Source of the DNA: Candidatus Hermodarchaeota archaeon
GTDB taxonomy: Archaea; Asgardarchaeota; Thorarchaeia; Thorarchaeales; Thorarchaeaceae
DNA length: 13,010 bases
Assembly (NCBI GenBank): GCA_048885865.1
Contig: JBHLLF010000064.1
Span: 1-13,010, forward strand
Reading direction: 5' to 3'
Shown here: in pieces, positions 623-8,000 of the stretch
Numbering within the stretch: the stretch's first letter is position 1
How the letters are laid out: every line of letters starts with the position of its first letter
Notes under the pieces: generated by a model
The model's input: the letters and a program-made list of their open reading frames with translations, nothing else
Databases searched by the model: none
What the model was told of the DNA's origin: nothing
Made by a program: the position numbers and the translations under genes

Positions 623-1963
623 CTATTCAGTGATAGCGTGGGCTTGCATAGCAATTCTGGGCTTGAGTTCACGCACTGGAATGCCAGTTTCCTTGGAAAC
701 CTTCATGACGTCATCGGCTTCAGGTTTGATGTTGATTATACTCCCATCAACACCTCGTGAAACCTTCACACGAACCATGAACTCCATGCCCTCAATCTCC
801 ATCTTGCACACAATGGTCTCTCTTGCCGCCTTGAGTCGATCCCAAGTTGTGTATCGAATTCCCAAAGTTCCGAGATGTCTGATCATGATTTCTGCGATAT
901 TCTGCAAGCCGGATTTAGCTGCAATCACCTTGACCACATAAGCAGGACGATTCTTCTTTCCATAGGCAGGAATCATCACAACATCATAGGCAAGGCCTCC
1001 TGACAGGAGGGTATCGAACATGGTTCCCATTATTTCGCCATCAATGTCATCAACAGTGGTTTCGATAACGACTACTTCATCCGCACTCCATGAATCAATC
1101 ATCCCAGCTCTATCCTCCTTTTTCTTTGGTGCATCTCTTTTCTTTGCAGGTTCTTTCTTGGGTGGTGCTTTCTTGGTTGCCTTCTTTAGTTCAGGCTTGG
1201 TTTCATCAGCAAACTCACCGACGATTACTCTCATTCGGTTAGTCACATCGCCAAGGTCACGAGAACCGAATCCAACACCCTGTTGCTTGACCATGAACCC
1301 TTCAGATGATTCCACAAACTCAGTTGCCAGTGTGGCCAGAAGAGCAGCGCCTGTTGGCGTGAGGACTTCTGTTTTTGCCTCACCCATTATGAATGGAACC
1401 TCGTTTGTCACGAGTATTTCAGCTACAGCAGGGACAGGCACTTCGAGCGGGCCATGTTCCGTTTCTATTGTGCCGCTCCCAACCGCTACATGAGTTGCAA
1501 TTATCCTAGTATCAGTTAGAAGGCCTGAACGTTCCATAAGATAGGCAGTTCCAATTAAATCGAGGATGGTATCGACCGAACCCGTTTCATGAAGATGTAG
1601 CTTGTCAATCGGGGTTTCATGTGCTCTCGATTCAGCCTGCAGAATCTCATTCAATGCTCTCTGAGCTATTTGCTTCGCAGGTGGTGATAGCTCCAATTCC
1701 TCAGCAACTGCATCCAACATTTCAATCAGGTCATTGGGTCTGAATCGCATCTCGGGGTCCTTTGAAACCTCCAATCGAACTCCTGACTGGTCATCTTCAG
1801 TCTTAGTGGTGAATCGAACCCTTAATGCTGGATCATATAGCAATAGACTTGCAGCCACGGGAAGAAGAGCATCGTCTTCACCCAGAAAATCGACTAGTGC
1901 AGATAGAAACATGTCCCCTGATGTGCCAGCAGTCCTGACATCAATAAGGACGGTTTTTGTCAA
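623..1963 (-). CDS. larC: Nickel-pincer nucleotide cofactor biosynthesis protein LarC (nickel insertase), single-chain
   Basis: N-terminal AGTSGDMFLSAL, AESRAH...HLHETGSVDTILDLIG, HGPLEVPVPAV, TPTGAALL and GVGFG motifs. The C-terminal domain has ETTVDD..GE, KKNRP, TLGIR, VKV and KPEADD. TTG start with GGAG upstream. Confidence 0.92.
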   Translation of the reverse strand: MTKTVLIDVRTAGTSGDMFLSALVDFLGEDDALLPVAASLLLYDPALRVRFTTKTEDDQSGVRLEVSKDPEMRFRPNDLIEMLDAVAEELELSPPAKQIAQRALNEILQAESRAHETPIDKLHLHETGSVDTILDLIGTAYLMERSGLLTDTRIIATHVAVGSGTIETEHGPLEVPVPAVAEILVTNEVPFIMGEAKTEVLTPTGAALLATLATEFVESSEGFMVKQQGVGFGSRDLGDVTNRMRVIVGEFADETKPELKKATKKAPPKKEPAKKRDAPKKKEDRAGMIDSWSADEVVVIETTVDDIDGEIMGTMFDTLLSGGLAYDVVMIPAYGKKNRPAYVVKVIAAKSGLQNIAEIMIRHLGTLGIRYTTWDRLKAARETIVCKMEIEGMEFMVRVKVSRGVDGSIINIKPEADDVMKVSKETGIPVRELKPRIAMQAHAITE

Positions 1964-2169: not shown

Positions 2170-2982
2170 TCATTCTTTGAATGTCATCCGCGCATTTCTT
2201 TTCGTCGCAGAGCCACCTCGCCGCCATTGTTCAAAGATTGCCATGTACATGCACTCCTGCGGACTAATCCACATATCAGAAGAGTCAAACGACTCATCGA
2301 TGAACTCGGCTGGTGCAGAACGAATCAAGGCCGCAGGTATTGATTCATCGGACTCACCCATCACTGCAGTACATGCAGAAGCAAGATTGTCTGCAATTGC
2401 TCGTCTAGTTATCCTCATTTCATTGCCAAAGAGATCAGTTCGTCCTCTGTCATCAGCCACCGGTCGAAATCCAGCCACACCAAGTGCCATCCCAATATTC
2501 CCAAGGCGGAGTGGTTGAGTCCTGCTATCAATAATCATAACTCCGATGTCTATCCCATATCGATTATGTGCTTCCCGTCTGATTCGTTCAGCGCTCCCCT
2601 TAGGGTCGGTCGGTAACAGAGATGCGTATCCGGGTGGCACATTGGACTTGTCCACCCCAGCATTGGCCATGAGTGTGTTGTTTTTGATGGTTAGAATCAC
2701 ATATGGAATCCCACCGAGAATCTCGTCCGCCTCTCTGAGCACTAGCTCTGCAACCTCAGGCAAAAGATCGTACTCATCAGCAAGCTCGATGGCTTCCTCA
2801 CTAGGGTCAACTCTAGCAAGTTTGACTACCCGTCCTTCAGCAGTTCCTAATGGAGTTTCCGCAATCCCGAGGATGTCGTGATTCTTCAACTCGAGACCCT
2901 GTGATTCTAGTGCACCAATGAGGACTTCAAGAATGTCATCATTCTCAGAGATGATACGCGTCTTAATGGGAAAGATTTGCAT
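2170..2982 (-). CDS. cofE: Coenzyme F420-0:L-glutamate ligase (CofE family)
   Basis: Motifs AEGRVV, ANAGVDKSN, LLPTDP, IIDSRTQPLRLG, GVAG, DxRGRTDLFGNEM.IT, ADNLAS and MGESDESIPAALIR. The start is moved from the ORF-track TTG at 3033 to ATG 2982 (MQIFPIKT), which has a GAGGTG Shine-Dalgarno and matches the family N-terminus. Confidence 0.9.
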   Translation of the reverse strand: MQIFPIKTRIISENDDILEVLIGALESQGLELKNHDILGIAETPLGTAEGRVVKLARVDPSEEAIELADEYDLLPEVAELVLREADEILGGIPYVILTIKNNTLMANAGVDKSNVPPGYASLLPTDPKGSAERIRREAHNRYGIDIGVMIIDSRTQPLRLGNIGMALGVAGFRPVADDRGRTDLFGNEMRITRRAIADNLASACTAVMGESDESIPAALIRSAPAEFIDESFDSSDMWISPQECMYMAIFEQWRRGGSATKRNARMTFKE

Positions 2983-3017
2983 CAGTGACACCTCTGCTCC
3001 GGCGTGGAGACACACTA

Positions 3018-3025
3018 AGATAAAA
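3018..3025 (-). promoter_or_regulatory. Possible TATA-like box (TTTTATCT, preceded by purine-rich GAGAGG) for cofE
   Basis: It lies in the 60-nt gap between the marker-14 stop and the cofE ATG, about 35 nt upstream of the start and upstream of the SD. Confidence 0.4.
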
Positions 3026-3042
3026 CCTCTCAATGAACATAA

Positions 3043-4479
3043 TTAAGCCTTGGATTTCTTCGACCGCTGAAGCTTCATCCTGGCATCCATTATGCATTTG
3101 TCACCCTTTCGACCGCCCATTGGATTGTGAATAGTACCCATAGAATTCATACACCGAGCGGCAACAGCCGCCCCCATTGCCAGACCATCCTCGACTATTA
3201 GCATTTGCCTTGATTCAGTCCATTTTCTGCCGCTGTCTGTAAGCAGTTGTGAATTAGCAATTCTAGGCTTATTTCCTGTTGTGATGGCCCTTCCTGTGAG
3301 CCCCAGAGAAGTACCCTCCAGAATTAGACCTTCTGAGAATGCTAGGTCCACCAAGCGCTGTACCACTTGAACCTGCACGCAATCTATTACGGCTAGCAAA
3401 GCATCGGTACCGAATTCTTCAGCAATGTCCTTTCCAATCATCCCCAAGTCTGAAAGGCGAGACCCATTCACTCCGGAGTCCACGCCTATCAGAGTTACCT
3501 CAGATTCAATAGCTGCTTTCACATCAACTGGAACCATCCCAAATCTAGTAGTTCCCTTTGATATCGCCTCAACTCGAATATTGGCATGAACTTCATCTAT
3601 CAAGTCATTGTCGACATCAATCCTTCGAGGCCGCGCTGAGTCGCGGACATCAAGCAGAGAGCCAGTCCGTTCCTCCACGATTCCTGTTCCTCTGACCAAC
3701 GCATCTGGTATTGCTCCAGCTAGGCCAGCAAATGATCCAATGGTCTTTGCATATGGATGTCCATCATCTGTTACTCTACCAGCAAGAGTAGTCCCGAAGT
3801 CAAGGGTCATAACGGGGTTTCTAAAGTCCACATTTGCAATCTTTGCAGCTCCTTTCAATCCAGCTGTGACGAGCTCGCCCTCCATCTCATTTGCGACTAT
3901 CTCAGCATTAGAGGGGGGAAGAGAACTGGCTACAGCACCGTCAAAGTATACCTTATGGAGCCAAGTGAAGTCTCTCAGACTTAGCGGAAGATTCTCCGGT
4001 GAAATGGAAGCAGTCATCTTTCTTGGAGCTACACCCGTAGCTAGACAGCCCTCCGCAAGCGCTTTGACGATGGCTCCGACTTCCTCCGGCTCCGCGAATC
4101 CTGCATTGACTCCTGTAGAACGAACAACAAAATGGAGGTCCTTATCGATGTCAAGTCGTGCGCGGGCGAGTGCGGTTCTAAGTATATCAGACACCATCTC
4201 AGCAACTGACTCTTTAGTCAAGTCTATGCCAGTGAGTGTGTGACCAAAGACCTCCTCGCCATTTAGTGGAGGGCGAACATCCCTGGTCATTCGAACTTCC
4301 TTTTCGATTTCGAAGATTTCAGCAGTTTCGAGATTTGTCGATACAATCACACATTTTGTGGTGGTGTTTCCAAGTTCAACTGATGCAACGGTGTAGTAAG
4401 GTCCCATTCGAAGACTAGAAGGTCCAATGCTACGCGGGCGAATCAGTTTCAATTTTCCTTCTCCTTTTCCATCATTCAT
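3043..4479 (-). CDS. Methanogenesis marker protein 14 (DUF2114 family), ASKHA-fold putative ATPase
   Basis: Recognised family signature YYTVASVELGNTTTKC...KEVRMTRDVRPP..GEEVFG, plus FVVRSTGV, ANEMEGELVTAG, DFRNP..TLDFGTTLAGR, GLAGAIPDA and C-terminal EDGLAMGAAVAARCMNSMG..NPMGG..G.KCI. Its position directly after mtrH matches the usual context. ATGA overlap with the mtrH stop. Confidence 0.88.
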   Translation of the reverse strand: MNDGKGEGKLKLIRPRSIGPSSLRMGPYYTVASVELGNTTTKCVIVSTNLETAEIFEIEKEVRMTRDVRPPLNGEEVFGHTLTGIDLTKESVAEMVSDILRTALARARLDIDKDLHFVVRSTGVNAGFAEPEEVGAIVKALAEGCLATGVAPRKMTASISPENLPLSLRDFTWLHKVYFDGAVASSLPPSNAEIVANEMEGELVTAGLKGAAKIANVDFRNPVMTLDFGTTLAGRVTDDGHPYAKTIGSFAGLAGAIPDALVRGTGIVEERTGSLLDVRDSARPRRIDVDNDLIDEVHANIRVEAISKGTTRFGMVPVDVKAAIESEVTLIGVDSGVNGSRLSDLGMIGKDIAEEFGTDALLAVIDCVQVQVVQRLVDLAFSEGLILEGTSLGLTGRAITTGNKPRIANSQLLTDSGRKWTESRQMLIVEDGLAMGAAVAARCMNSMGTIHNPMGGRKGDKCIMDARMKLQRSKKSKA

Positions 4480-5411
4480 AGAAGTTTCCTGAAGGGGTGA
4501 TTCGCTGGTGGCTCTAGACCCATTTCCATCTTTGCAGACTCGGCCGAAAAGATATCTGCCATTGCTACCGCTGGAAACACTCTATCTGCATTGCCTATAG
4601 GACCGTAAAGGAGAAAATCAGCTCCCAGTGACTGAACAACTAGATTCGAGGCAATATCACATATCTTGTACGCTTCTCGGTTCTCCTTTCTATATTGCTT
4701 TAGCCAAGTCCATGACGATGCGGCATTATGAATCCCCGAACCTGTAGGATGACCATACAGTGTTTTTGATACAAATGTGAAAGAGACCGCGGCGCCAGCT
4801 CCAGCCCCCATAGCTGTTGTAGCTGTATCAATCAAGGGTTTATTCACCCCTACATCTTCTGCGATGGACAGTAGTCCCTGCTTCAGCGACGCAGCGCCTT
4901 CGTCAAGTATAGCCCTACGACCTGCTGTCGATGAGTCTTGCGGATTGAAGGCAAGCACGATTGCACACTCATGTTGGATATCACGCAGAGCATCAATCTC
5001 TTCCATAGTCACGGATATGTTGATAGAGTTGTAGATTGCCTTGTCGATGAGTCCAATCTCCTCAGAATAACGCAATCCTTCCACGCGTACCATAGGGTCT
5101 GTAGAGTCAATGATGAATGGCGCATCCGTCAAGGCAGATACAAAATCTATGTATTTCTCCATGGCACTTGCCGACTCAGCGAATATCTGAACCATTGCAG
5201 GGTTTCCTGTCATATCAGACATCGTTTCTTGCCCGTTGATCAGATTCTCTGCTGCACTCGTATCCACTATCCCTTTGGAGGCATCTTGTACTATCTTGTG
5301 TCCTCCATAGAAGATGGTCCCGGCCAGAACTGTTGGCGTTTCTCCGGGATTGCCCCCTATCTTTACGCCACCAACGTCATAGATGTACTGTTCTTTCTGA
5401 AACACAAACAA
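4476..5411 (-). CDS. mtrH: Tetrahydromethanopterin S-methyltransferase subunit H (canonical MtrH-family pterin:corrinoid methyltransferase)
   Basis: MFVFQKEQ...GGNPGETPTVLAGTIFY.GHKIV.D..KG, PFIIDST, IYNSIN, LIDTA, G.PTGSGIHN..S.W.WL and GADFLLYGPI. TTG start with a GGAG SD, 3 nt after the mtrA stop. Confidence 0.93.
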   Translation of the reverse strand: MFVFQKEQYIYDVGGVKIGGNPGETPTVLAGTIFYGGHKIVQDASKGIVDTSAAENLINGQETMSDMTGNPAMVQIFAESASAMEKYIDFVSALTDAPFIIDSTDPMVRVEGLRYSEEIGLIDKAIYNSINISVTMEEIDALRDIQHECAIVLAFNPQDSSTAGRRAILDEGAASLKQGLLSIAEDVGVNKPLIDTATTAMGAGAGAAVSFTFVSKTLYGHPTGSGIHNAASSWTWLKQYRKENREAYKICDIASNLVVQSLGADFLLYGPIGNADRVFPAVAMADIFSAESAKMEMGLEPPANHPFRKLL

Positions 5412-5414
5412 TGT

Positions 5415-6098
5415 CTACAACTCCTTCCCAATTAGAGCCGTTCCAGACTCAGTGGAATGAACTTCAATTCCGATAGATGACGGATGAGCAGTGATTATAG
5501 CACCGGCTTCTTGAGAAGCAACCAAGAAAGAGAAAGGGTTCAGTGACACCCCATATTCTGGAAGCAGAGTAATTGAAGCCCCAATTCCAATTCTTTCTGC
5601 TGTGCTTGCAGCCCCTCTGAAATCAATAAACATGGGTTCTTCATCAAAGGACCCTGGATTCTTGGCTTGCAGCTTTGCAGCCTTTTCAGATATATCATCA
5701 GCATGAGAGTTGTTCATCATGTCCACGAATTCAATCTGTTGCCTAAATCGCTCCACGCCTTCAAGGGGCACATTCTCAATGTAGGGAATGGCTCCGGGTG
5801 CGTCCACTATCTTACGTGTATCGGCGTCAACGCCGTTTTCGTAGAGAGCCTTCATAGATGAGCCAGTCAAATGACCAGGAACCTCAGGCCCTGCAAGAAT
5901 CAAGAAACGAATGGAAGGATTGGAGATCACATTGATGATGACCCGCTCAATTCCAATATTCTCAGTCTTACATGTACCAATTATGGCAAAGTCTCCGGGA
6001 ACATGGAACTTCTTACCTAATGTACAGATTGCTACAGAGTGATCGGGGTCTCCAACCTCGAAATCTCCAGGCACATGAGGCCAATTATTCGCAGACAC
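5415..6098 (-). CDS. mtrA: MtrA-family corrinoid-binding protein, soluble (no membrane anchor), with a C-terminal extension
   Basis: WP..PGD..VGDP..SVAICTLG, G.CKTENIGIERVIINVISNP.IRFLIL.G.EV.GH.TG (cobamide His ligand at about residue 76), GAIPYIEN, ERFRQQIE.VD and PG.F.EEPM. GTG start with an AGGAGGT SD. Confidence 0.93.
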   Translation of the reverse strand: MSANNWPHVPGDFEVGDPDHSVAICTLGKKFHVPGDFAIIGTCKTENIGIERVIINVISNPSIRFLILAGPEVPGHLTGSSMKALYENGVDADTRKIVDAPGAIPYIENVPLEGVERFRQQIEFVDMMNNSHADDISEKAAKLQAKNPGSFDEEPMFIDFRGAASTAERIGIGASITLLPEYGVSLNPFSFLVASQEAGAIITAHPSSIGIEVHSTESGTALIGKEL

Positions 6099-6109
6099 GA
6101 TGAAACCTC

Positions 6110-7027
6110 CTATTCCCCCGCCTTTGGCTCGAAGAGATGTTTCGTTGTTCCAAGCACTTGGCTAGCTTCCTCAACCGCAGAAAAAATGGCGTTCTGTATT
6201 AGCGCCACAGCTGCAAATACCTCCTGAGACCTTCTCATGGAGCCATACATTATGCAATCTGTAGCGAATAGTTGGGCTGCCACTATTGAGGCTACTACTG
6301 ATGAATTGACTATATCCTCCTTATCTAGACCCTGCTCCGTGATGAACTTCCAAGCCGATGGTGCATTATGTGGTGCTAGACATGTAGGCAAACCCAGCTC
6401 AGACTTTACTGCGACATTCGTTCTCAGTTCTAATCCATATCCTGCTCCCACAGGCATCGTTCCAGGATCAATAACGAATTTCTCTATCCCCAATCCCTTC
6501 GCATCAGAAACTATTGCCTCAATTACATCCATCCGTTCCTTCAGCGAGCTGGCCTTCGGGGACCATCCTAGTACAACAGCCATACTGAGTTGACTGTCTC
6601 TCAAGAATGCACGTTCATCCTCGTCCATGGACATATTGATCGAATTGTAGATTGCTCTCCCTGTTAAGCCAGCCTCATTGCAGAAGTCGGTAGCCCGCTT
6701 CTTGGCGCTAACATTGGGGGATTCATACATGAAGGGGCCATCGAAATTCTCAGCTAGCCATGATAGATGACGCTCCATAGCAATGCCCGATCGCCCATAT
6801 ACTTCCACAATCATTGGATGACCTGTTCTCTCGGACATGCCAATCCCAGCATCAAGCCATTCCTTTGCGGTCTTCTTGTCAAAGAGACCCTCTTTTGTGC
6901 TCTCAACAATTGATTGTCCTTTAAAGAAGAGTCCCCCCACAAGGACTGTTGGATTCTCTCCTGGATAGCCTCCGATTGTTATACCACTGAAATCAAACGA
7001 CTTCTGTTCTTTCTTAAAGACAAACAT
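6110..7027 (-). CDS. mtrH: Second, divergent MtrH-family methyltransferase paralog
   Basis: MFVFKKEQ...IGGYPGENPTVLVG, GLFDK, AIYNSIN, VIDP, G.PT...PHNAPSAW and D..MYG. It is clearly homologous to the downstream MtrH but has altered motifs. A GAGGT SD overlaps the metF stop. Confidence 0.88.
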   Translation of the reverse strand: MFVFKKEQKSFDFSGITIGGYPGENPTVLVGGLFFKGQSIVESTKEGLFDKKTAKEWLDAGIGMSERTGHPMIVEVYGRSGIAMERHLSWLAENFDGPFMYESPNVSAKKRATDFCNEAGLTGRAIYNSINMSMDEDERAFLRDSQLSMAVVLGWSPKASSLKERMDVIEAIVSDAKGLGIEKFVIDPGTMPVGAGYGLELRTNVAVKSELGLPTCLAPHNAPSAWKFITEQGLDKEDIVNSSVVASIVAAQLFATDCIMYGSMRRSQEVFAAVALIQNAIFSAVEEASQVLGTTKHLFEPKAGE

Positions 7028-7039
7028 TCTTGTTCAACC

Positions 7040-7942
7040 TCAACCGGGACGCGGATAAAGCCCTGCTAACTTGACGAGTTCTGGTACGCAGGACTCCCAG
7101 CCTACAGCCATTATATGAACACCGTCCACTCCATCAATTGTTCTCAATGAATTGATAGTTTCAGCAGCAATAGACAGACCTTCTTGCTGGATTGCCTGTT
7201 CCTTTTCCTCATCATCAAGCCCCTCAGCAGCATTATCTAGGCGTTGAAGAATCGCATCAGGAATTGTGATGCCAGATACATGTTCGGTCATAAACTCGGC
7301 CATTTCTAGTCCCCGCAAAGGAACAACCCCAGCTAGAATATACGTATTCAGATCCGCAAGGGATTCCACAAATTCTGCTAGGCGAGATATGTCAAAGACA
7401 GCTTGAGTCTGAAAGAATTGGGCACCAGATTCATGCTTCAGCTTTGCTCTTTGTATCTGATGCTCAACTGGCTCGACAAAGGGATCGAACGTCGCTCCAA
7501 GAAGGAAGTCGGGCACCCCCTCAATCTCCTCATCGGAATGATCTTTGCCAGCCATCATTCGAGAGGCCAATCGAAGAGCTTGAATTGAATCAATATCTGA
7601 AACAATCTTGGCTTGTGTATCTGACCCAAAGCCCGGAAGATCACCCGTAACAAAGAGCACATTGCGAATTCCTAGAGCATAAGCGCCATAAAGATCACTC
7701 ATCAAAGCCACTCTATTACGGTCTCTCATTGCCATCTGCAGGATAGGTTCTAGTCCTGCATCAAGTGCCAACCGTGCTCCTGCAATGCTGCTCATTCTGG
7801 GGATTCTTCTTGGATTGTCAGGTATATTAACTGCATCACAGAAGTCCTTGACGACACTCGCCTTCTCAATCAACGACAGGTGGTCGGCTCCTCGAGGCGC
7901 ACCTATCTCAGCTGTTACAACAAACTCACCGCTTTGCAGCAT
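7040..7942 (-). CDS. metF: Methylenetetrahydrofolate reductase (MetF family flavoprotein, acetogen/archaeal-type); the true start may be CTG at 7966
   Basis: VTAEIGAPRG (catalytic Glu), DAVNIPDNP...MSS, EPILQM..RDRNR.AL..DL.GA.ALGIRNVL.VTGD, GA.FFQTQAVFD, ILAGVVPL and GVDGVHIMA.GW. Confidence 0.9.
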   Translation of the reverse strand: MLQSGEFVVTAEIGAPRGADHLSLIEKASVVKDFCDAVNIPDNPRRIPRMSSIAGARLALDAGLEPILQMAMRDRNRVALMSDLYGAYALGIRNVLFVTGDLPGFGSDTQAKIVSDIDSIQALRLASRMMAGKDHSDEEIEGVPDFLLGATFDPFVEPVEHQIQRAKLKHESGAQFFQTQAVFDISRLAEFVESLADLNTYILAGVVPLRGLEMAEFMTEHVSGITIPDAILQRLDNAAEGLDDEEKEQAIQQEGLSIAAETINSLRTIDGVDGVHIMAVGWESCVPELVKLAGLYPRPG

Positions 7943-8000
7943 TTGCCCAAGATGAGATATCGGCAGTTTTGGGGACTCCCTGTGTGTAGATAGTGAAGGG

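What the first reader, a model, noticed from the sequence alone, without database searches (positions are those of the whole stretch)
3043..7966. Candidate soluble folate/methanopterin methyl-shuttle operon: metF - mtrH' - mtrA(soluble) - mtrH - marker 14
Seen: five co-directional genes with gaps of 12, 11, 3 and -4 nt. SD motifs overlap upstream stops, so this is one translationally coupled unit. No mtrB/C/D/E/F/G lies within or next to it, no mcr is in the window, and none of the five proteins has a convincing TM helix. Established: in methanogens MtrH moves methyl from CH3-H4MPT to the MtrA cobamide and MtrCDE couples transfer to CoM with Na+ pumping. MtrH-family members such as MtgA and CmuB use H4folate instead. 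MetF interconverts methylene- and methyl-H4folate. Inference: two different MtrH enzymes sharing one corrinoid carrier could form a transmethylase, CH3-H4MPT <-> Co-MtrA <-> CH3-H4F. MetF would link this to methylene-H4F, bridging the archaeal and bacterial-type C1 pools without energy conservation. It differs from the Methanosarcina mtxXAH operon in lacking mtxX, having two H subunits and including metF. I do not know of this architecture being characterised.
Basis: partly seen in the sequence, partly recalled or inferred. Interest (0 to 1): 0.9.

Follow-up and report, generated by a model that had tools for sequence, protein, structure and literature searches.

The report
Soluble Mtr-derived methyl relay operon, Thorarchaeota
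An Asgard archaeon (Thorarchaeota) carries a membrane-free version of the methanogens' vitamin-B12 methyl-transfer machine, with two different methyltransferases around one cobalt carrier next to a methylene-pterin reductase. The gene set is real, conserved across the family and partly published, but the proposed folate-to-methanopterin bridge is only one possible job for it and has not been shown.

Summary
Five tightly packed minus-strand genes encode an MTHFR-like MetF, a divergent MtrH (MtrH1), an anchor-less MtrA, a canonical MtrH (MtrH2) and methanogenesis marker 14 (DUF2114). A CofE-like ligase and a LarC-like gene follow.

The window is a whole contig of a Ca. Thorarchaeota MAG with no McrA and no MtrE. 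The gene order recurs in 18 of 20 loci from 16 genera, and MtrA is found in 73 of 81 class genomes.

MtrH1 is an isolated, Thorarchaeia-only clade. It keeps every pterin-ring and catalytic residue (Asp to Glu fixed at one) but has a remodelled tail site. Marker 14 is an ASKHA ATPase that lies just behind mtrH in methanogens too, so it is probably the MtrA activase.

This genome has both enzyme sets: Fwd/Ftr/Mch/Mtd/Mer/CdhDE and Fhs/FolD/MetF. That fits a methyl-level junction. However, it makes folate (true DHPS) and lacks RFAP synthase, the committed methanopterin step. That enzyme is missing from 40 of 41 family genomes yet present in other Asgard families.

The shuttle is therefore possible, not shown. 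MtrAH plus marker 14 in Thorarchaeia was published by Adam et al. 2022. This scan has met the operon before in at least 10 other genomes.

The parts
7040..7942 (-). metF: MTHFR-like methylene-pterin reductase. It is the only MTHFR in the genome, and no MetV partner is present.
   Evidence: PF02219 scores 97.5 bits. It is the only PF02219 match in the genome. MetV (PF12225) was not found in the genome, although a 226-aa MetV sits upstream of metF in many relatives. The nearest relatives are Asgard MetF at about 50% identity.
6110..7027 (-). mtrH1: divergent MtrH-family TIM-barrel methyltransferase specific to Thorarchaeia.
   Evidence: PF02007 scores 226.8 bits. It falls below the TIGR01114 cut-off (224.7 vs 271.4). 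It is 33% identical to MtrH2. Among 1.84 billion representatives there is one full-length cluster at 60% identity, and the next hit is at 35%. The clade has 100* support on a 0.84 stem. E102, N128, D187, H220 and N221 are invariant in 19 orthologues.
5415..6098 (-). mtrA: soluble cobamide carrier. It has a Rossmann-like domain with the His76 ligand, a disordered linker and a small C-terminal beta domain in place of the TM anchor.
   Evidence: PF04208 scores 199.4 bits. It aligns to solved MtrA structures 5LAA and 8Q3V over residues 3-160. The G75-H76 motif is invariant. In the AF2 model, residues 1-160 have pLDDT around 90, 163-173 are below 50, and 176-226 form five strands at pLDDT 59-76. 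There is no TM helix.
4476..5411 (-). mtrH2: canonical MtrH, the methyl-pterin:Co(I) corrinoid methyltransferase.
   Evidence: PF02007 scores 390.8 bits. TIGR01114 scores 402.3, above the 271.4 cut-off. It scores 281 bits against M. mazei MtrH 9QTP, with T32, Q75, D102, N128, D195, H228, N229 and the basic patch retained.
3043..4479 (-). Methanogenesis marker 14 (DUF2114, m26): an ASKHA-fold ATPase and the candidate activase or maintenance factor for MtrA.
   Evidence: PF09887 scores 602 bits. TIGR03285 scores 589.9, above the 274 cut-off. The AF2 model has pLDDT 83 and pTM 0.86. The fold is ASKHA, at Z 15-18. 103 residues are invariant across 20 Thorarchaeia and 12 methanogen homologues, including C145, C443 and C462. 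In methanogens it lies just downstream of mtrH in 13 of 19 loci.
2170..3033 (-). cofE-like gamma-glutamyl ligase, the most divergent of three paralogues. It is a probable member of the unit.
   Evidence: PF01996 scores 236 bits. TIGR01916 scores 194.5, against 250.7 and 256.6 for the two other genomic copies. TIGR04132 (a folate-type ligase model) scores 107, against 74 and 72. It is syntenic in 19 of 20 loci.
623..1963 (-). LarC-like nickel-insertion protein. It is a conserved downstream neighbour, and whether it belongs to the unit is uncertain.
   Evidence: PF01969 scores 316 bits. It follows cofE in 18 of 20 loci. A Ni_insertion gene also lies near a stand-alone MtrH in an unrelated contig.

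Best explanation
This is a membrane-free derivative of the methanogen Mtr methyltransferase that works as a soluble three-component corrinoid methyl relay.

MtrA carries a cobamide on His76 and has lost its membrane anchor. MtrH2 is a canonical methyl-pterin:Co(I) methyltransferase. MtrH1 is a Thorarchaeia-only paralogue that still has the full pterin-ring and catalytic residue set but a different tail-binding surface. It most likely performs the second half-reaction with a different pterin species.

MetF makes or consumes the methyl-pterin for one side. Marker 14, an ATPase of the actin/sugar-kinase fold inherited together with mtrA-mtrH from the methanogen-type operon, most likely keeps the cobamide in the active Co(I) state or loads it. 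The CofE-like ligase may glutamylate the carrier.

Net effect: a reversible, non-energy-conserving junction at the methyl level. [quoted passage not shown]

Shown: the gene content, the soluble nature, the conservation, the residue retention and the genomic context. Inferred: direction, substrates, the marker 14 role and the CofE-like role.

Sub-confidences: soluble corrinoid methyl-transfer module, 0.9. Marker 14 as activase or chaperone of MtrA, 0.5. Relay between two different pterin species, 0.3-0.35. The overall figure of 0.4 is for the explanation as a whole.
For: - Family assignments and tight coupling.
- No McrA or MtrE in the genome, and MtrA is single-copy.
- The module is found in 73 of 81 class genomes and 16 of 17 genera. 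Two apparent absences are contig-end artefacts.
- Gene order is conserved in 18 of 20 loci.
- MtrH1 is as conserved as MtrH2 (mean column identity 75% vs 73%). E102, N128, D187, H220 and N221 are invariant, matching the M. mazei and MtgA pterin and catalytic residues. It is therefore an enzyme under selection, not a decayed copy (PMC12774963, PMC7154762).
- Fixed MtrH1-specific changes (G32, F35, Q38, E102, P188) and a shortened basic patch point to a different substrate form.
- In this genome MetF is the only MTHFR. No MetH-type, MetE-type or AcsE-type consumer of methyl-folate was found, so the MtrH proteins are the only visible outlet.
- Both methyl-branch enzyme sets and CdhD/E are present.
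- Marker 14 has the ASKHA fold with intact nucleotide-binding motifs and 103 invariant residues. It lies behind mtrH in methanogens.
- By analogy, the genome's third MtrH sits with a bona fide RACo activase and a B12-binding protein.
- The one sister-family genome sampled lacks both the module and CdhD.
Against: - RFAP synthase was not found here and was found in only 1 of 41 family genomes, while other Asgard families have it. A true DHPS, MptE and GcvT show that folate is made. A second, methanopterin-type pool is therefore unproven.
- MtrH is a homodimer in Mtr (PMC12774963), so MtrH1/MtrH2 may be one heterodimeric enzyme on one carrier.
- Two genomes carry the module without metF.
- Mer is present in only 19 of 41 family genomes, so the archaeal methyl branch is often incomplete.
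- Marker 14 has no recognisable Fe-S or flavin domain. Its fold match to RACo is no better than its match to kinases, Kae1 or FtsA.
- There are no biochemical or expression data.
Confidence: 0.4

Rival explanations
1. One-carrier model. MtrH1 and MtrH2 form an obligate heterodimer, replacing the MtrH homodimer of Mtr. The heterodimer loads or unloads MtrA from a single methyl-pterin, the one MetF makes. The other half-reaction is done by an unlinked partner, for example CdhDE/ACS or an unknown methyltransferase.
For: MtrH dimerises through its C-terminal helices, and probably only one protomer serves MtrA in the M. mazei complex (PMC12774963). The C-terminal regions of both paralogues are conserved. 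Only folate biosynthesis is evident. MtrA has a conserved extra C-terminal beta domain that could tether it to such a dimer.
Against: MtrH1 keeps all catalytic and pterin residues invariant across 16 genera. That is not expected for a purely structural protomer. No candidate second methyltransferase is linked to the operon.
Confidence: 0.3
2. Methyl-input model. MtrH1 has drifted to a non-pterin or modified methyl donor or acceptor. The module would feed methyl groups from an unidentified methylated compound through MtrA and MtrH2 into the pterin pool, where MetF oxidises them or ACS uses them.
For: MtrH1 sits on a long stem and fails every curated MtrH and MtgA cut-off. Its tail-binding residues differ from MtgA: the MtgA Y230, F243, F251 and W272 equivalents are S, E, V and E. 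Published speculation holds that non-methanogen MtrAH funnels methyl groups into the WLP (PMC9635834).
Against: The pterin-ring ligands and catalytic Asn are invariant. Known substrate-specific MT1 enzymes belong to other families. The genome already has an MtgA-like MtrH3/RACo/B12-protein cluster for that role.
Confidence: 0.1
3. Thiol-methylation model. Methyl-MtrA is the corrinoid methyl donor for methionine (or coenzyme M) synthesis. The module would survive as an anabolic methyl supply.
For: The corrinoid donor for archaeal methionine synthesis is unknown (PMC9012536). No MetE-type enzyme was found in 31 family genomes and no MetH-type domain in 11 genus genomes, so an unrecognised route is needed if methionine is made.
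Against: No homocysteine- or CoM-binding methyltransferase is linked to the operon or detected in the genome. The conserved Cys residues of MtrH1 are not a specific new Zn site: C116 is shared with M. mazei MtrH, and MtgA has a Cys next to C216. These peptide-degrading archaea may simply import methionine.
Confidence: 0.07
4. Evolutionary leftover. The genes are decaying remnants of a lost Mtr complex with no current function.
For: Thorarchaeia lack Mcr and the membrane Mtr subunits (PMC9635834).
Against: All frames are intact. Synteny spans 16 genera. Mean column identity is 65-75%. Marker 14 is about 50% identical to methanogen homologues, with 103 invariant residues.
Confidence: 0.03

Closest known systems
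Thorarchaeia 'canonical MtrAH' plus marker m26 (DUF2114), reported as methanogenesis remnants (Adam et al. 2022, Sci Adv, PMC9635834)
   Same: These are the same genes in the same lineage. MtrA, the canonical MtrH and DUF2114 are linked by distribution, phylogeny and synteny, with no other Mtr subunits, and a role as a methyltransferase around the WLP was proposed.
   Different: In the text and supplement I read, that paper does not describe the second, divergent MtrH, the metF (metV) and cofE-like linkage, the loss of the MtrA anchor with gain of a beta domain, or any mechanism.
MtrA-H complex of methanogens (M. mazei 9QTP/9QTS, PMC12774963; M. marburgensis 8Q3V, PMC10998594)
   Same: MtrA has the same cobamide domain and His ligand. 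MtrH2 scores 281 bits against M. mazei MtrH, with the same pterin residues and basic patch. The gene order mtrA...mtrH-marker 14 is as in Methanobacteria and Methanomicrobiales.
   Different: There is no MtrB-G, no membrane anchor, no Na+ pumping, and no CoM or Mcr context. The MtrB-contacting Asp5 is replaced in both MtrH paralogues (Gln5 in MtrH2, Lys5 in MtrH1). A second MtrH paralogue stands where mtrB would be.
Three-component corrinoid systems such as MtgABC of Desulfitobacterium hafniense (MtgA, PMC7154762), with RamA/RACo activases
   Same: The logic is the same: methyltransferase 1, corrinoid protein, methyltransferase 2, plus an ATP-dependent activase. MtgA is an MtrH-family pterin methyltransferase and scores 157-187 bits against both paralogues.
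   Different: The carrier is MtrA-type, not the B12-binding PF02310 type. Both methyltransferases are of the MtrH family. The putative activase has an ASKHA fold but lacks the ferredoxin domain of RACo. A separate MtgA-like/RACo/B12-protein cluster exists elsewhere in this genome.
mtxXAH operon of Methanosarcina barkeri (Harms and Thauer; cited in the supplement of PMC9635834)
   Same: It also contains paralogous soluble or non-pumping MtrA-like and MtrH-like genes in a small operon of unknown function.
   Different: Here there is no mtxX in the operon, there are two H subunits, and metF, marker 14 and a cofE-like gene are present. MtrA and MtrH2 are of the canonical type, not the Mtx type. 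The presence of MtxX elsewhere in the genome was not tested.
MtrA-like, MtrH and MtrAH fusion proteins of Atabeyarchaeia and Freyarchaeia (Valentin-Alvarado et al. 2024, PMC11291895)
   Same: These are also Asgard archaea without Mcr that keep MtrA/MtrH-type methyltransferases of unknown role.
   Different: Those are phylogenetically distinct fusions or MtrA-like proteins near MttB-type systems. They are not the canonical MtrA + two MtrH + marker 14 + metF operon.

Membership tests
Mtr complex (N5-methyl-H4MPT:CoM methyltransferase, MtrA-H) | MtrA cobamide-binding domain with a His lower ligand | tested here: met
   PF04208 scores 199 bits. The protein aligns to 5LAA and 8Q3V. The G75-H76 motif is invariant in 20 orthologues.
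Mtr complex (N5-methyl-H4MPT:CoM methyltransferase, MtrA-H) | C-terminal transmembrane anchor on MtrA | tested here: not met
   The maximum hydropathy is 1.39. TIGR01111 scores 194.5, below the 249 cut-off. The tail is modelled as a beta mini-domain.
Mtr complex (N5-methyl-H4MPT:CoM methyltransferase, MtrA-H) | Membrane subunits MtrB-G, including the Na+-binding MtrE | tested here: not met
   MtrE (PF04206) was not found in the 87%-complete genome. None lies in the operon in 20 relatives. Only MtrE was searched genome-wide.
Mtr complex (N5-methyl-H4MPT:CoM methyltransferase, MtrA-H) | Canonical MtrH | tested here: met
   MtrH2 scores 402.3 on TIGR01114, above the 271.4 cut-off. MtrH1 scores 224.7 and fails.
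Mtr complex (N5-methyl-H4MPT:CoM methyltransferase, MtrA-H) | Methyl-CoM consumer (Mcr) in the genome | tested here: not met
   McrA (PF02249) was not found.
Pterin-binding MtrH/MtgA methyltransferases (applied to MtrH1) | Pterin-ring ligands and catalytic Asn (M. mazei D103, N129, D196, N230; MtgA D102, N129, D194, N227) | tested here: met
   E102 (a conservative change), N128, D187 and N221 are invariant in 19 orthologues.
Pterin-binding MtrH/MtgA methyltransferases (applied to MtrH1) | Which pterin is used (H4F or H4MPT), and whether methyl-transfer activity exists | not testable with these tools
   This needs enzyme assays. The tail-site residues match neither MtgA nor MtrH fully.
Methanogenesis marker 14 (TIGR03285 / DUF2114) | Score above the curated cut-off, and linkage to mtr genes | tested here: met
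   The score is 589.9, above the 274 cut-off. It is adjacent to mtrH here and in 13 of 19 methanogen loci.
RACo/RamA-type reductive activators of corrinoid enzymes | ASKHA ATPase domain plus an Fe-S (ferredoxin) electron-entry domain | tested here: inconclusive
   The ASKHA fold is present. RACo entries 3ZYY and 4C1N appear among the Foldseek matches, but no better than kinases, Kae1 or BcrAD/HgdC types. No Fer2 or Fer4 domain is present. Three Cys are invariant.
MetFV-type methylenetetrahydrofolate reductase | MTHFR barrel with an adjacent MetV subunit | tested here: not met
   MTHFR is present. MetV is absent from the locus and was not found in the genome, although it is present in many relatives.
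Two-carrier (H4F plus H4MPT) C1 metabolism | Biosynthesis of both carriers | tested here: not met
   A folate-type DHPS is present (TIGR01496 scores 239, above the 162.6 cut-off). RFAP synthase was not found here and was found in only 1 of 41 family genomes. H4MPT-type enzymes are nevertheless present.

The most novel reading that the evidence does not exclude
The module is a true pterin-to-pterin transmethylase: methyl-folate to Co-MtrA to a methanopterin-like carrier, or the reverse. That would join a bacterial-type and an archaeal-type methyl branch in one cell. Marker 14 would then be the long-missing ATP-dependent activase of the Mtr corrinoid, here available in a small soluble system.
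Probability: 0.25. Interest if true: 0.8.

Novelty: new variant of a known kind. Interest (0 to 1): 0.55.

Why it matters
Mtr is the central energy-converting methyltransferase of methanogens, but it is a large membrane complex. How its cobamide is kept active, and what marker 14 does, are both unknown. Thorarchaeia offer a five-protein soluble version with the same MtrA, MtrH and marker 14, which is far easier to reconstitute.

The second, re-tooled MtrH and the link to MetF also bear on how Asgard archaea wire their Wood-Ljungdahl pathway. These genomes combine methanopterin-type enzymes with folate biosynthesis and apparently cannot make methanopterin by the known route. Knowing which pterin each MtrH uses would settle what C1 carrier these relatives of eukaryotes really use.

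Tried and rejected
- Complex prediction of MtrH1 + MtrH2 + MtrA gave no verdict (score 0.10, mark 0.32). I do not use it either way.
- A sequence search of the DUF2114 profile against PDB gave only chance-level hits.
- Literature searches for DUF2114 and for PDB entry 8Z9U found nothing useful. Liu et al. 2018 (PMC5864231) is not held.
- I considered MtrH1 as a Zn-thiol methyltransferase because of its conserved Cys116, Cys216 and Cys258. I rejected this because Cys116 is shared with M. mazei MtrH, MtgA has a Cys next to position 216, and the pterin ligands are intact.
- I looked for the MtrH1-type architecture outside Thorarchaeia. The nearest non-Thorarchaeia MtrH (P0004, 35% identity) is a stand-alone gene with no MtrA or marker 14 beside it.
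- I looked for a link between MetV presence at the locus and Mer presence in the genome. No pattern appeared.
- My first impression was that MtrH1 has lost the whole basic tail patch. I corrected this. Most orthologues keep Lys/Arg at W+1 and W+4; the window copy has Thr at W+4.
- MtrA 'absences' in G015 and G070 are contig-end artefacts.

Full report
**Observation.** The window is one whole 13,010-bp contig (C64) of a 3.58-Mb MAG that is 87% complete with 5.3% contamination. Close relatives are titled Candidatus Thorarchaeota / Promethearchaeota.

On the minus strand lie five ORFs: 7942-7040, 7027-6110, 6098-5415, 5411-4476 and 4479-3043. The gaps are 12, 11, 3 and -4 nt. Pfam assigns them as MTHFR (97.5 bits), MtrH (226.8), MtrA (199.4), MtrH (390.8) and DUF2114 (602.1). 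GAGG-type ribosome-binding motifs sit on or beside the upstream stop codons. No 19-residue window in the five proteins reaches a hydropathy typical of a TM helix.

The unit continues with a CofE-like gene (2170-3033) and a LarC-like gene (623-1963). Upstream are hflX and, divergently, an archaeosine tRNA-guanine transglycosylase gene.

**Is it more than one odd contig?** MtrA is found in 73 of 81 genomes sampled from the class, covering 16 of 17 genera, and is almost always single-copy. I fetched 20 loci from 16 genera. Eighteen show the same order: tgt | hflX-(metV)-metF-mtrH1-mtrA-mtrH2-marker14-cofE-larC. Two (G007, G057) have the module without metF.

The roughly 850-bp gap before metF in many relatives holds a 226-aa MetV (PF12225, 112.8 bits). 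This genome's genus, and several others, lack it at the locus. No MetV was found anywhere in this genome.

Two MtrA-negative genomes turned out to have the operon cut by a contig end. The single representative of the sister family (96% complete) has hflX but no module beside it, no MtrA and no CdhD.

**The two MtrH proteins.** MtrH2 is canonical. It scores 402 bits on the NCBIfam equivalog (cut-off 271) and 281 bits against the M. mazei MtrH of the solved complex. It keeps Thr32, Gln75, Asp102, Asn128, Asp195, His228 and Asn229. It also keeps the basic patch that the M. mazei authors propose binds the anionic methanopterin tail.

MtrH1 fails every curated cut-off and is only 33% identical to MtrH2. 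In a library of 1.84 billion representatives it has a single full-length cluster at 60% identity, then nothing above 35%. In a tree it forms a fully supported clade on a long stem (0.84). That clade lies inside the archaeal MtrH group that also holds MtrH2 and Methanosphaera MtrH. It is not with the MtgA-like or Bathyarchaeia-like group, which holds the genome's third MtrH.

MtrH1 is nevertheless not decaying. Mean column identity across 19 orthologues is 75%, against 73% for MtrH2. The counterparts of the pterin-ring ligands and catalytic residues (Glu102 for Asp, Asn128, Asp187, His220, Asn221) are invariant (residue roles from PMC12774963 and PMC7154762).

What differs is fixed across the clade. 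The changes are Gly32, Phe35, Gln38, Glu102 and Pro188, a three-residue deletion in the basic patch, and non-aromatic residues where MtgA stacks the folate benzoate. My reading is that MtrH1 is a working pterin methyltransferase tuned to a different form of carrier. That is an inference.

**MtrA.** Residues 3-160 align with solved MtrA cobamide domains, and the Gly-His ligand motif (His76) is invariant. The canonical linker and TM helix are replaced. The model shows a disordered stretch (163-173) and then a five-stranded mini-domain (176-226, pLDDT 59-76). Its conserved motifs are W-[IV]-x-F, P-E-[YF], H-P-S and G-T-x-L-x-G-K-E.

In the M. mazei complex the MtrH dimer is held by the MtrB N-terminal strand. 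The contacting Asp5 is replaced in both paralogues here (Gln5 in MtrH2, Lys5 in MtrH1). The MtrA tail may therefore be a replacement tether, but I could not test this. The complex prediction gave no verdict.

**Marker 14.** The model is confident (pLDDT 83, pTM 0.86) and has the ASKHA fold. Z scores of 15-18 are tied among MK0840, CoaX, AnmK, the BcrAD/HgdC-type ATP-driven electron activators, FtsA and Kae1. RACo appears among the Foldseek matches but does not stand out.

Across 20 Thorarchaeia and 12 methanogen homologues, 103 residues are invariant. They include the nucleotide-binding glycine motifs and Cys145, Cys443 and Cys462. In Methanobacteria and Methanomicrobiales the gene lies just downstream of mtrH on the same strand, in 13 of 19 loci. 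This confirms the synteny that Adam et al. mention.

The Thorarchaeial mtrA-mtrH2-marker14 segment is therefore a contracted methanogen-type operon, with metF-mtrH1 added in front. An ATP-dependent role in keeping or making Co(I)-MtrA is the most economical guess. From my own knowledge, early work on the methanogen methyltransferase reported a need for ATP and reducing conditions for activation. I did not verify that in a paper here.

This genome has both enzyme sets.
- Methanopterin-type: FwdA (658 bits), Ftr, Mch, Mtd, a true Mer (441 bits, cut-off 349) and CdhD/E.
- Folate-type: Fhs next to FolD, MetF as the sole MTHFR, a true dihydropteroate synthase (239 bits, cut-off 163) coupled to an MptE-like kinase, and GcvT.

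That is the ideal setting for a methyl-level junction. No MetH-type, MetE-type or AcsE-type consumer of methyl-folate was found. The MtrH proteins are therefore the only visible outlet for what MetF makes.

Against the bridge, RFAP synthase was not found here. This is the committed enzyme of methanopterin synthesis. It was found in only 1 of 41 family genomes. By contrast, 29 of 71 Asgard genomes have it, including every sampled lineage that has Ftr and CdhD.

Thorarchaeia may use an unknown route, may scavenge the cofactor, or may run 'methanopterin' enzymes on another pterin. Mer itself is patchy, at 19 of 41 genomes. MetF belongs to a clade shared with other Asgard lineages, whose specificity has been questioned before (PMC9012536). 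Finally, because MtrH is a homodimer in Mtr, a MtrH1/MtrH2 heterodimer on one carrier is a serious rival.

**Other members.** The operon's CofE-like gene is the most divergent of three paralogues. It leans toward the folate-type gamma-glutamate ligase model more than the others do (107 bits against 74 and 72). From my own knowledge, a CofE-family enzyme replaces FolC in Chlamydia. A role in glutamylating the pterin carrier is therefore conceivable, but untested.

**Comparison and novelty.** Adam et al. 2022 (PMC9635834) reported canonical MtrAH without other subunits in Thorarchaeia, and marker m26 (DUF2114) tied to it by synteny. In what I read, they did not describe the second MtrH, the metF and cofE-like linkage, or the remodelled MtrA.

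The system works like a three-component corrinoid methyltransferase (MtgABC-type logic) but is built from Mtr parts. It fails the membership tests for the Mtr complex itself: no anchor, no MtrE, no Mcr. I class it as a new variant of a known kind.

This scan has reported the same operon in at least 10 other Thorarchaeia genomes. What is particular here is the absence of MetV together with complete sets of both methyl-branch enzymes.

**Verdict.** This is a real, conserved, soluble Mtr-derived methyl-transfer operon. The folate-methanopterin shuttle is a reasonable reading but unproven, at roughly 0.3. A one-carrier heterodimer model is about as likely.

Noticed in passing
G000:C3:141565-146308 (L072:7566-12309): The genome's third MtrH (352 aa, closest to a Bathyarchaeota-type MtrH) sits in a separate cluster. 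It is followed by a RACo-type activase (Fer2 + RACo middle + ASKHA) and a B12-binding corrinoid protein, and it faces a 4Fe-4S protein. This is a classical MtgA-like methyl-transfer set.
   Followed up: partly
whole genome and family: Thorarchaeia keep FwdA, Ftr, Mch, Mtd, (Mer) and CdhDE. However, RFAP synthase, the committed methanopterin biosynthesis enzyme, was found in only 1 of 41 family genomes, while other Asgard families with these enzymes have it. Which C1 carrier these enzymes use is unexplained.
   Followed up: partly
G000:C40:4187-7442 (L085:116-3371): A true folate-type dihydropteroate synthase with a C-terminal extension of about 130 aa is translationally coupled to an MptE-like pterin diphosphokinase. 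It lies next to a divergently oriented GcvT. The DHPS is found in 23 of 25 family genomes.
   Followed up: partly
window:2170-3033; G000:C1:160240-161049; G000:C2:103760-104587: There are three CofE paralogues. The one in the operon is the most divergent and scores highest on the folate-type gamma-glutamate ligase model.
   Followed up: partly
window:623-1963 and L081:4921-6156: A LarC-like nickel-insertion gene follows the operon in 18 of 20 Thorarchaeia loci. A Ni_insertion gene also lies two genes from a stand-alone MtrH in an unrelated metagenomic contig, beside tetrapyrrole genes. There may be a link to metal or cofactor insertion.
   Followed up: no
G059 (same genus, single contig): This genome has no MtrA, no HflX match and no true CdhD. 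Its FwdA and Fhs matches carry internal stops or are truncated. It is possibly a lineage losing the Wood-Ljungdahl pathway together with the module, or a poor assembly.
   Followed up: no
family-wide: No MetE-type (0 of 31 family genomes) or MetH-type (0 of 11 genus genomes) methionine synthase domain was found. Either these archaea need external methionine or they use an unrecognised route.
   Followed up: partly
window:7943-8050: Only 108 nt separate hflX from metF, with no obvious TATA-like element. hflX-metF adjacency (with or without metV) is conserved in most genera, so hflX may be co-transcribed.
   Followed up: no
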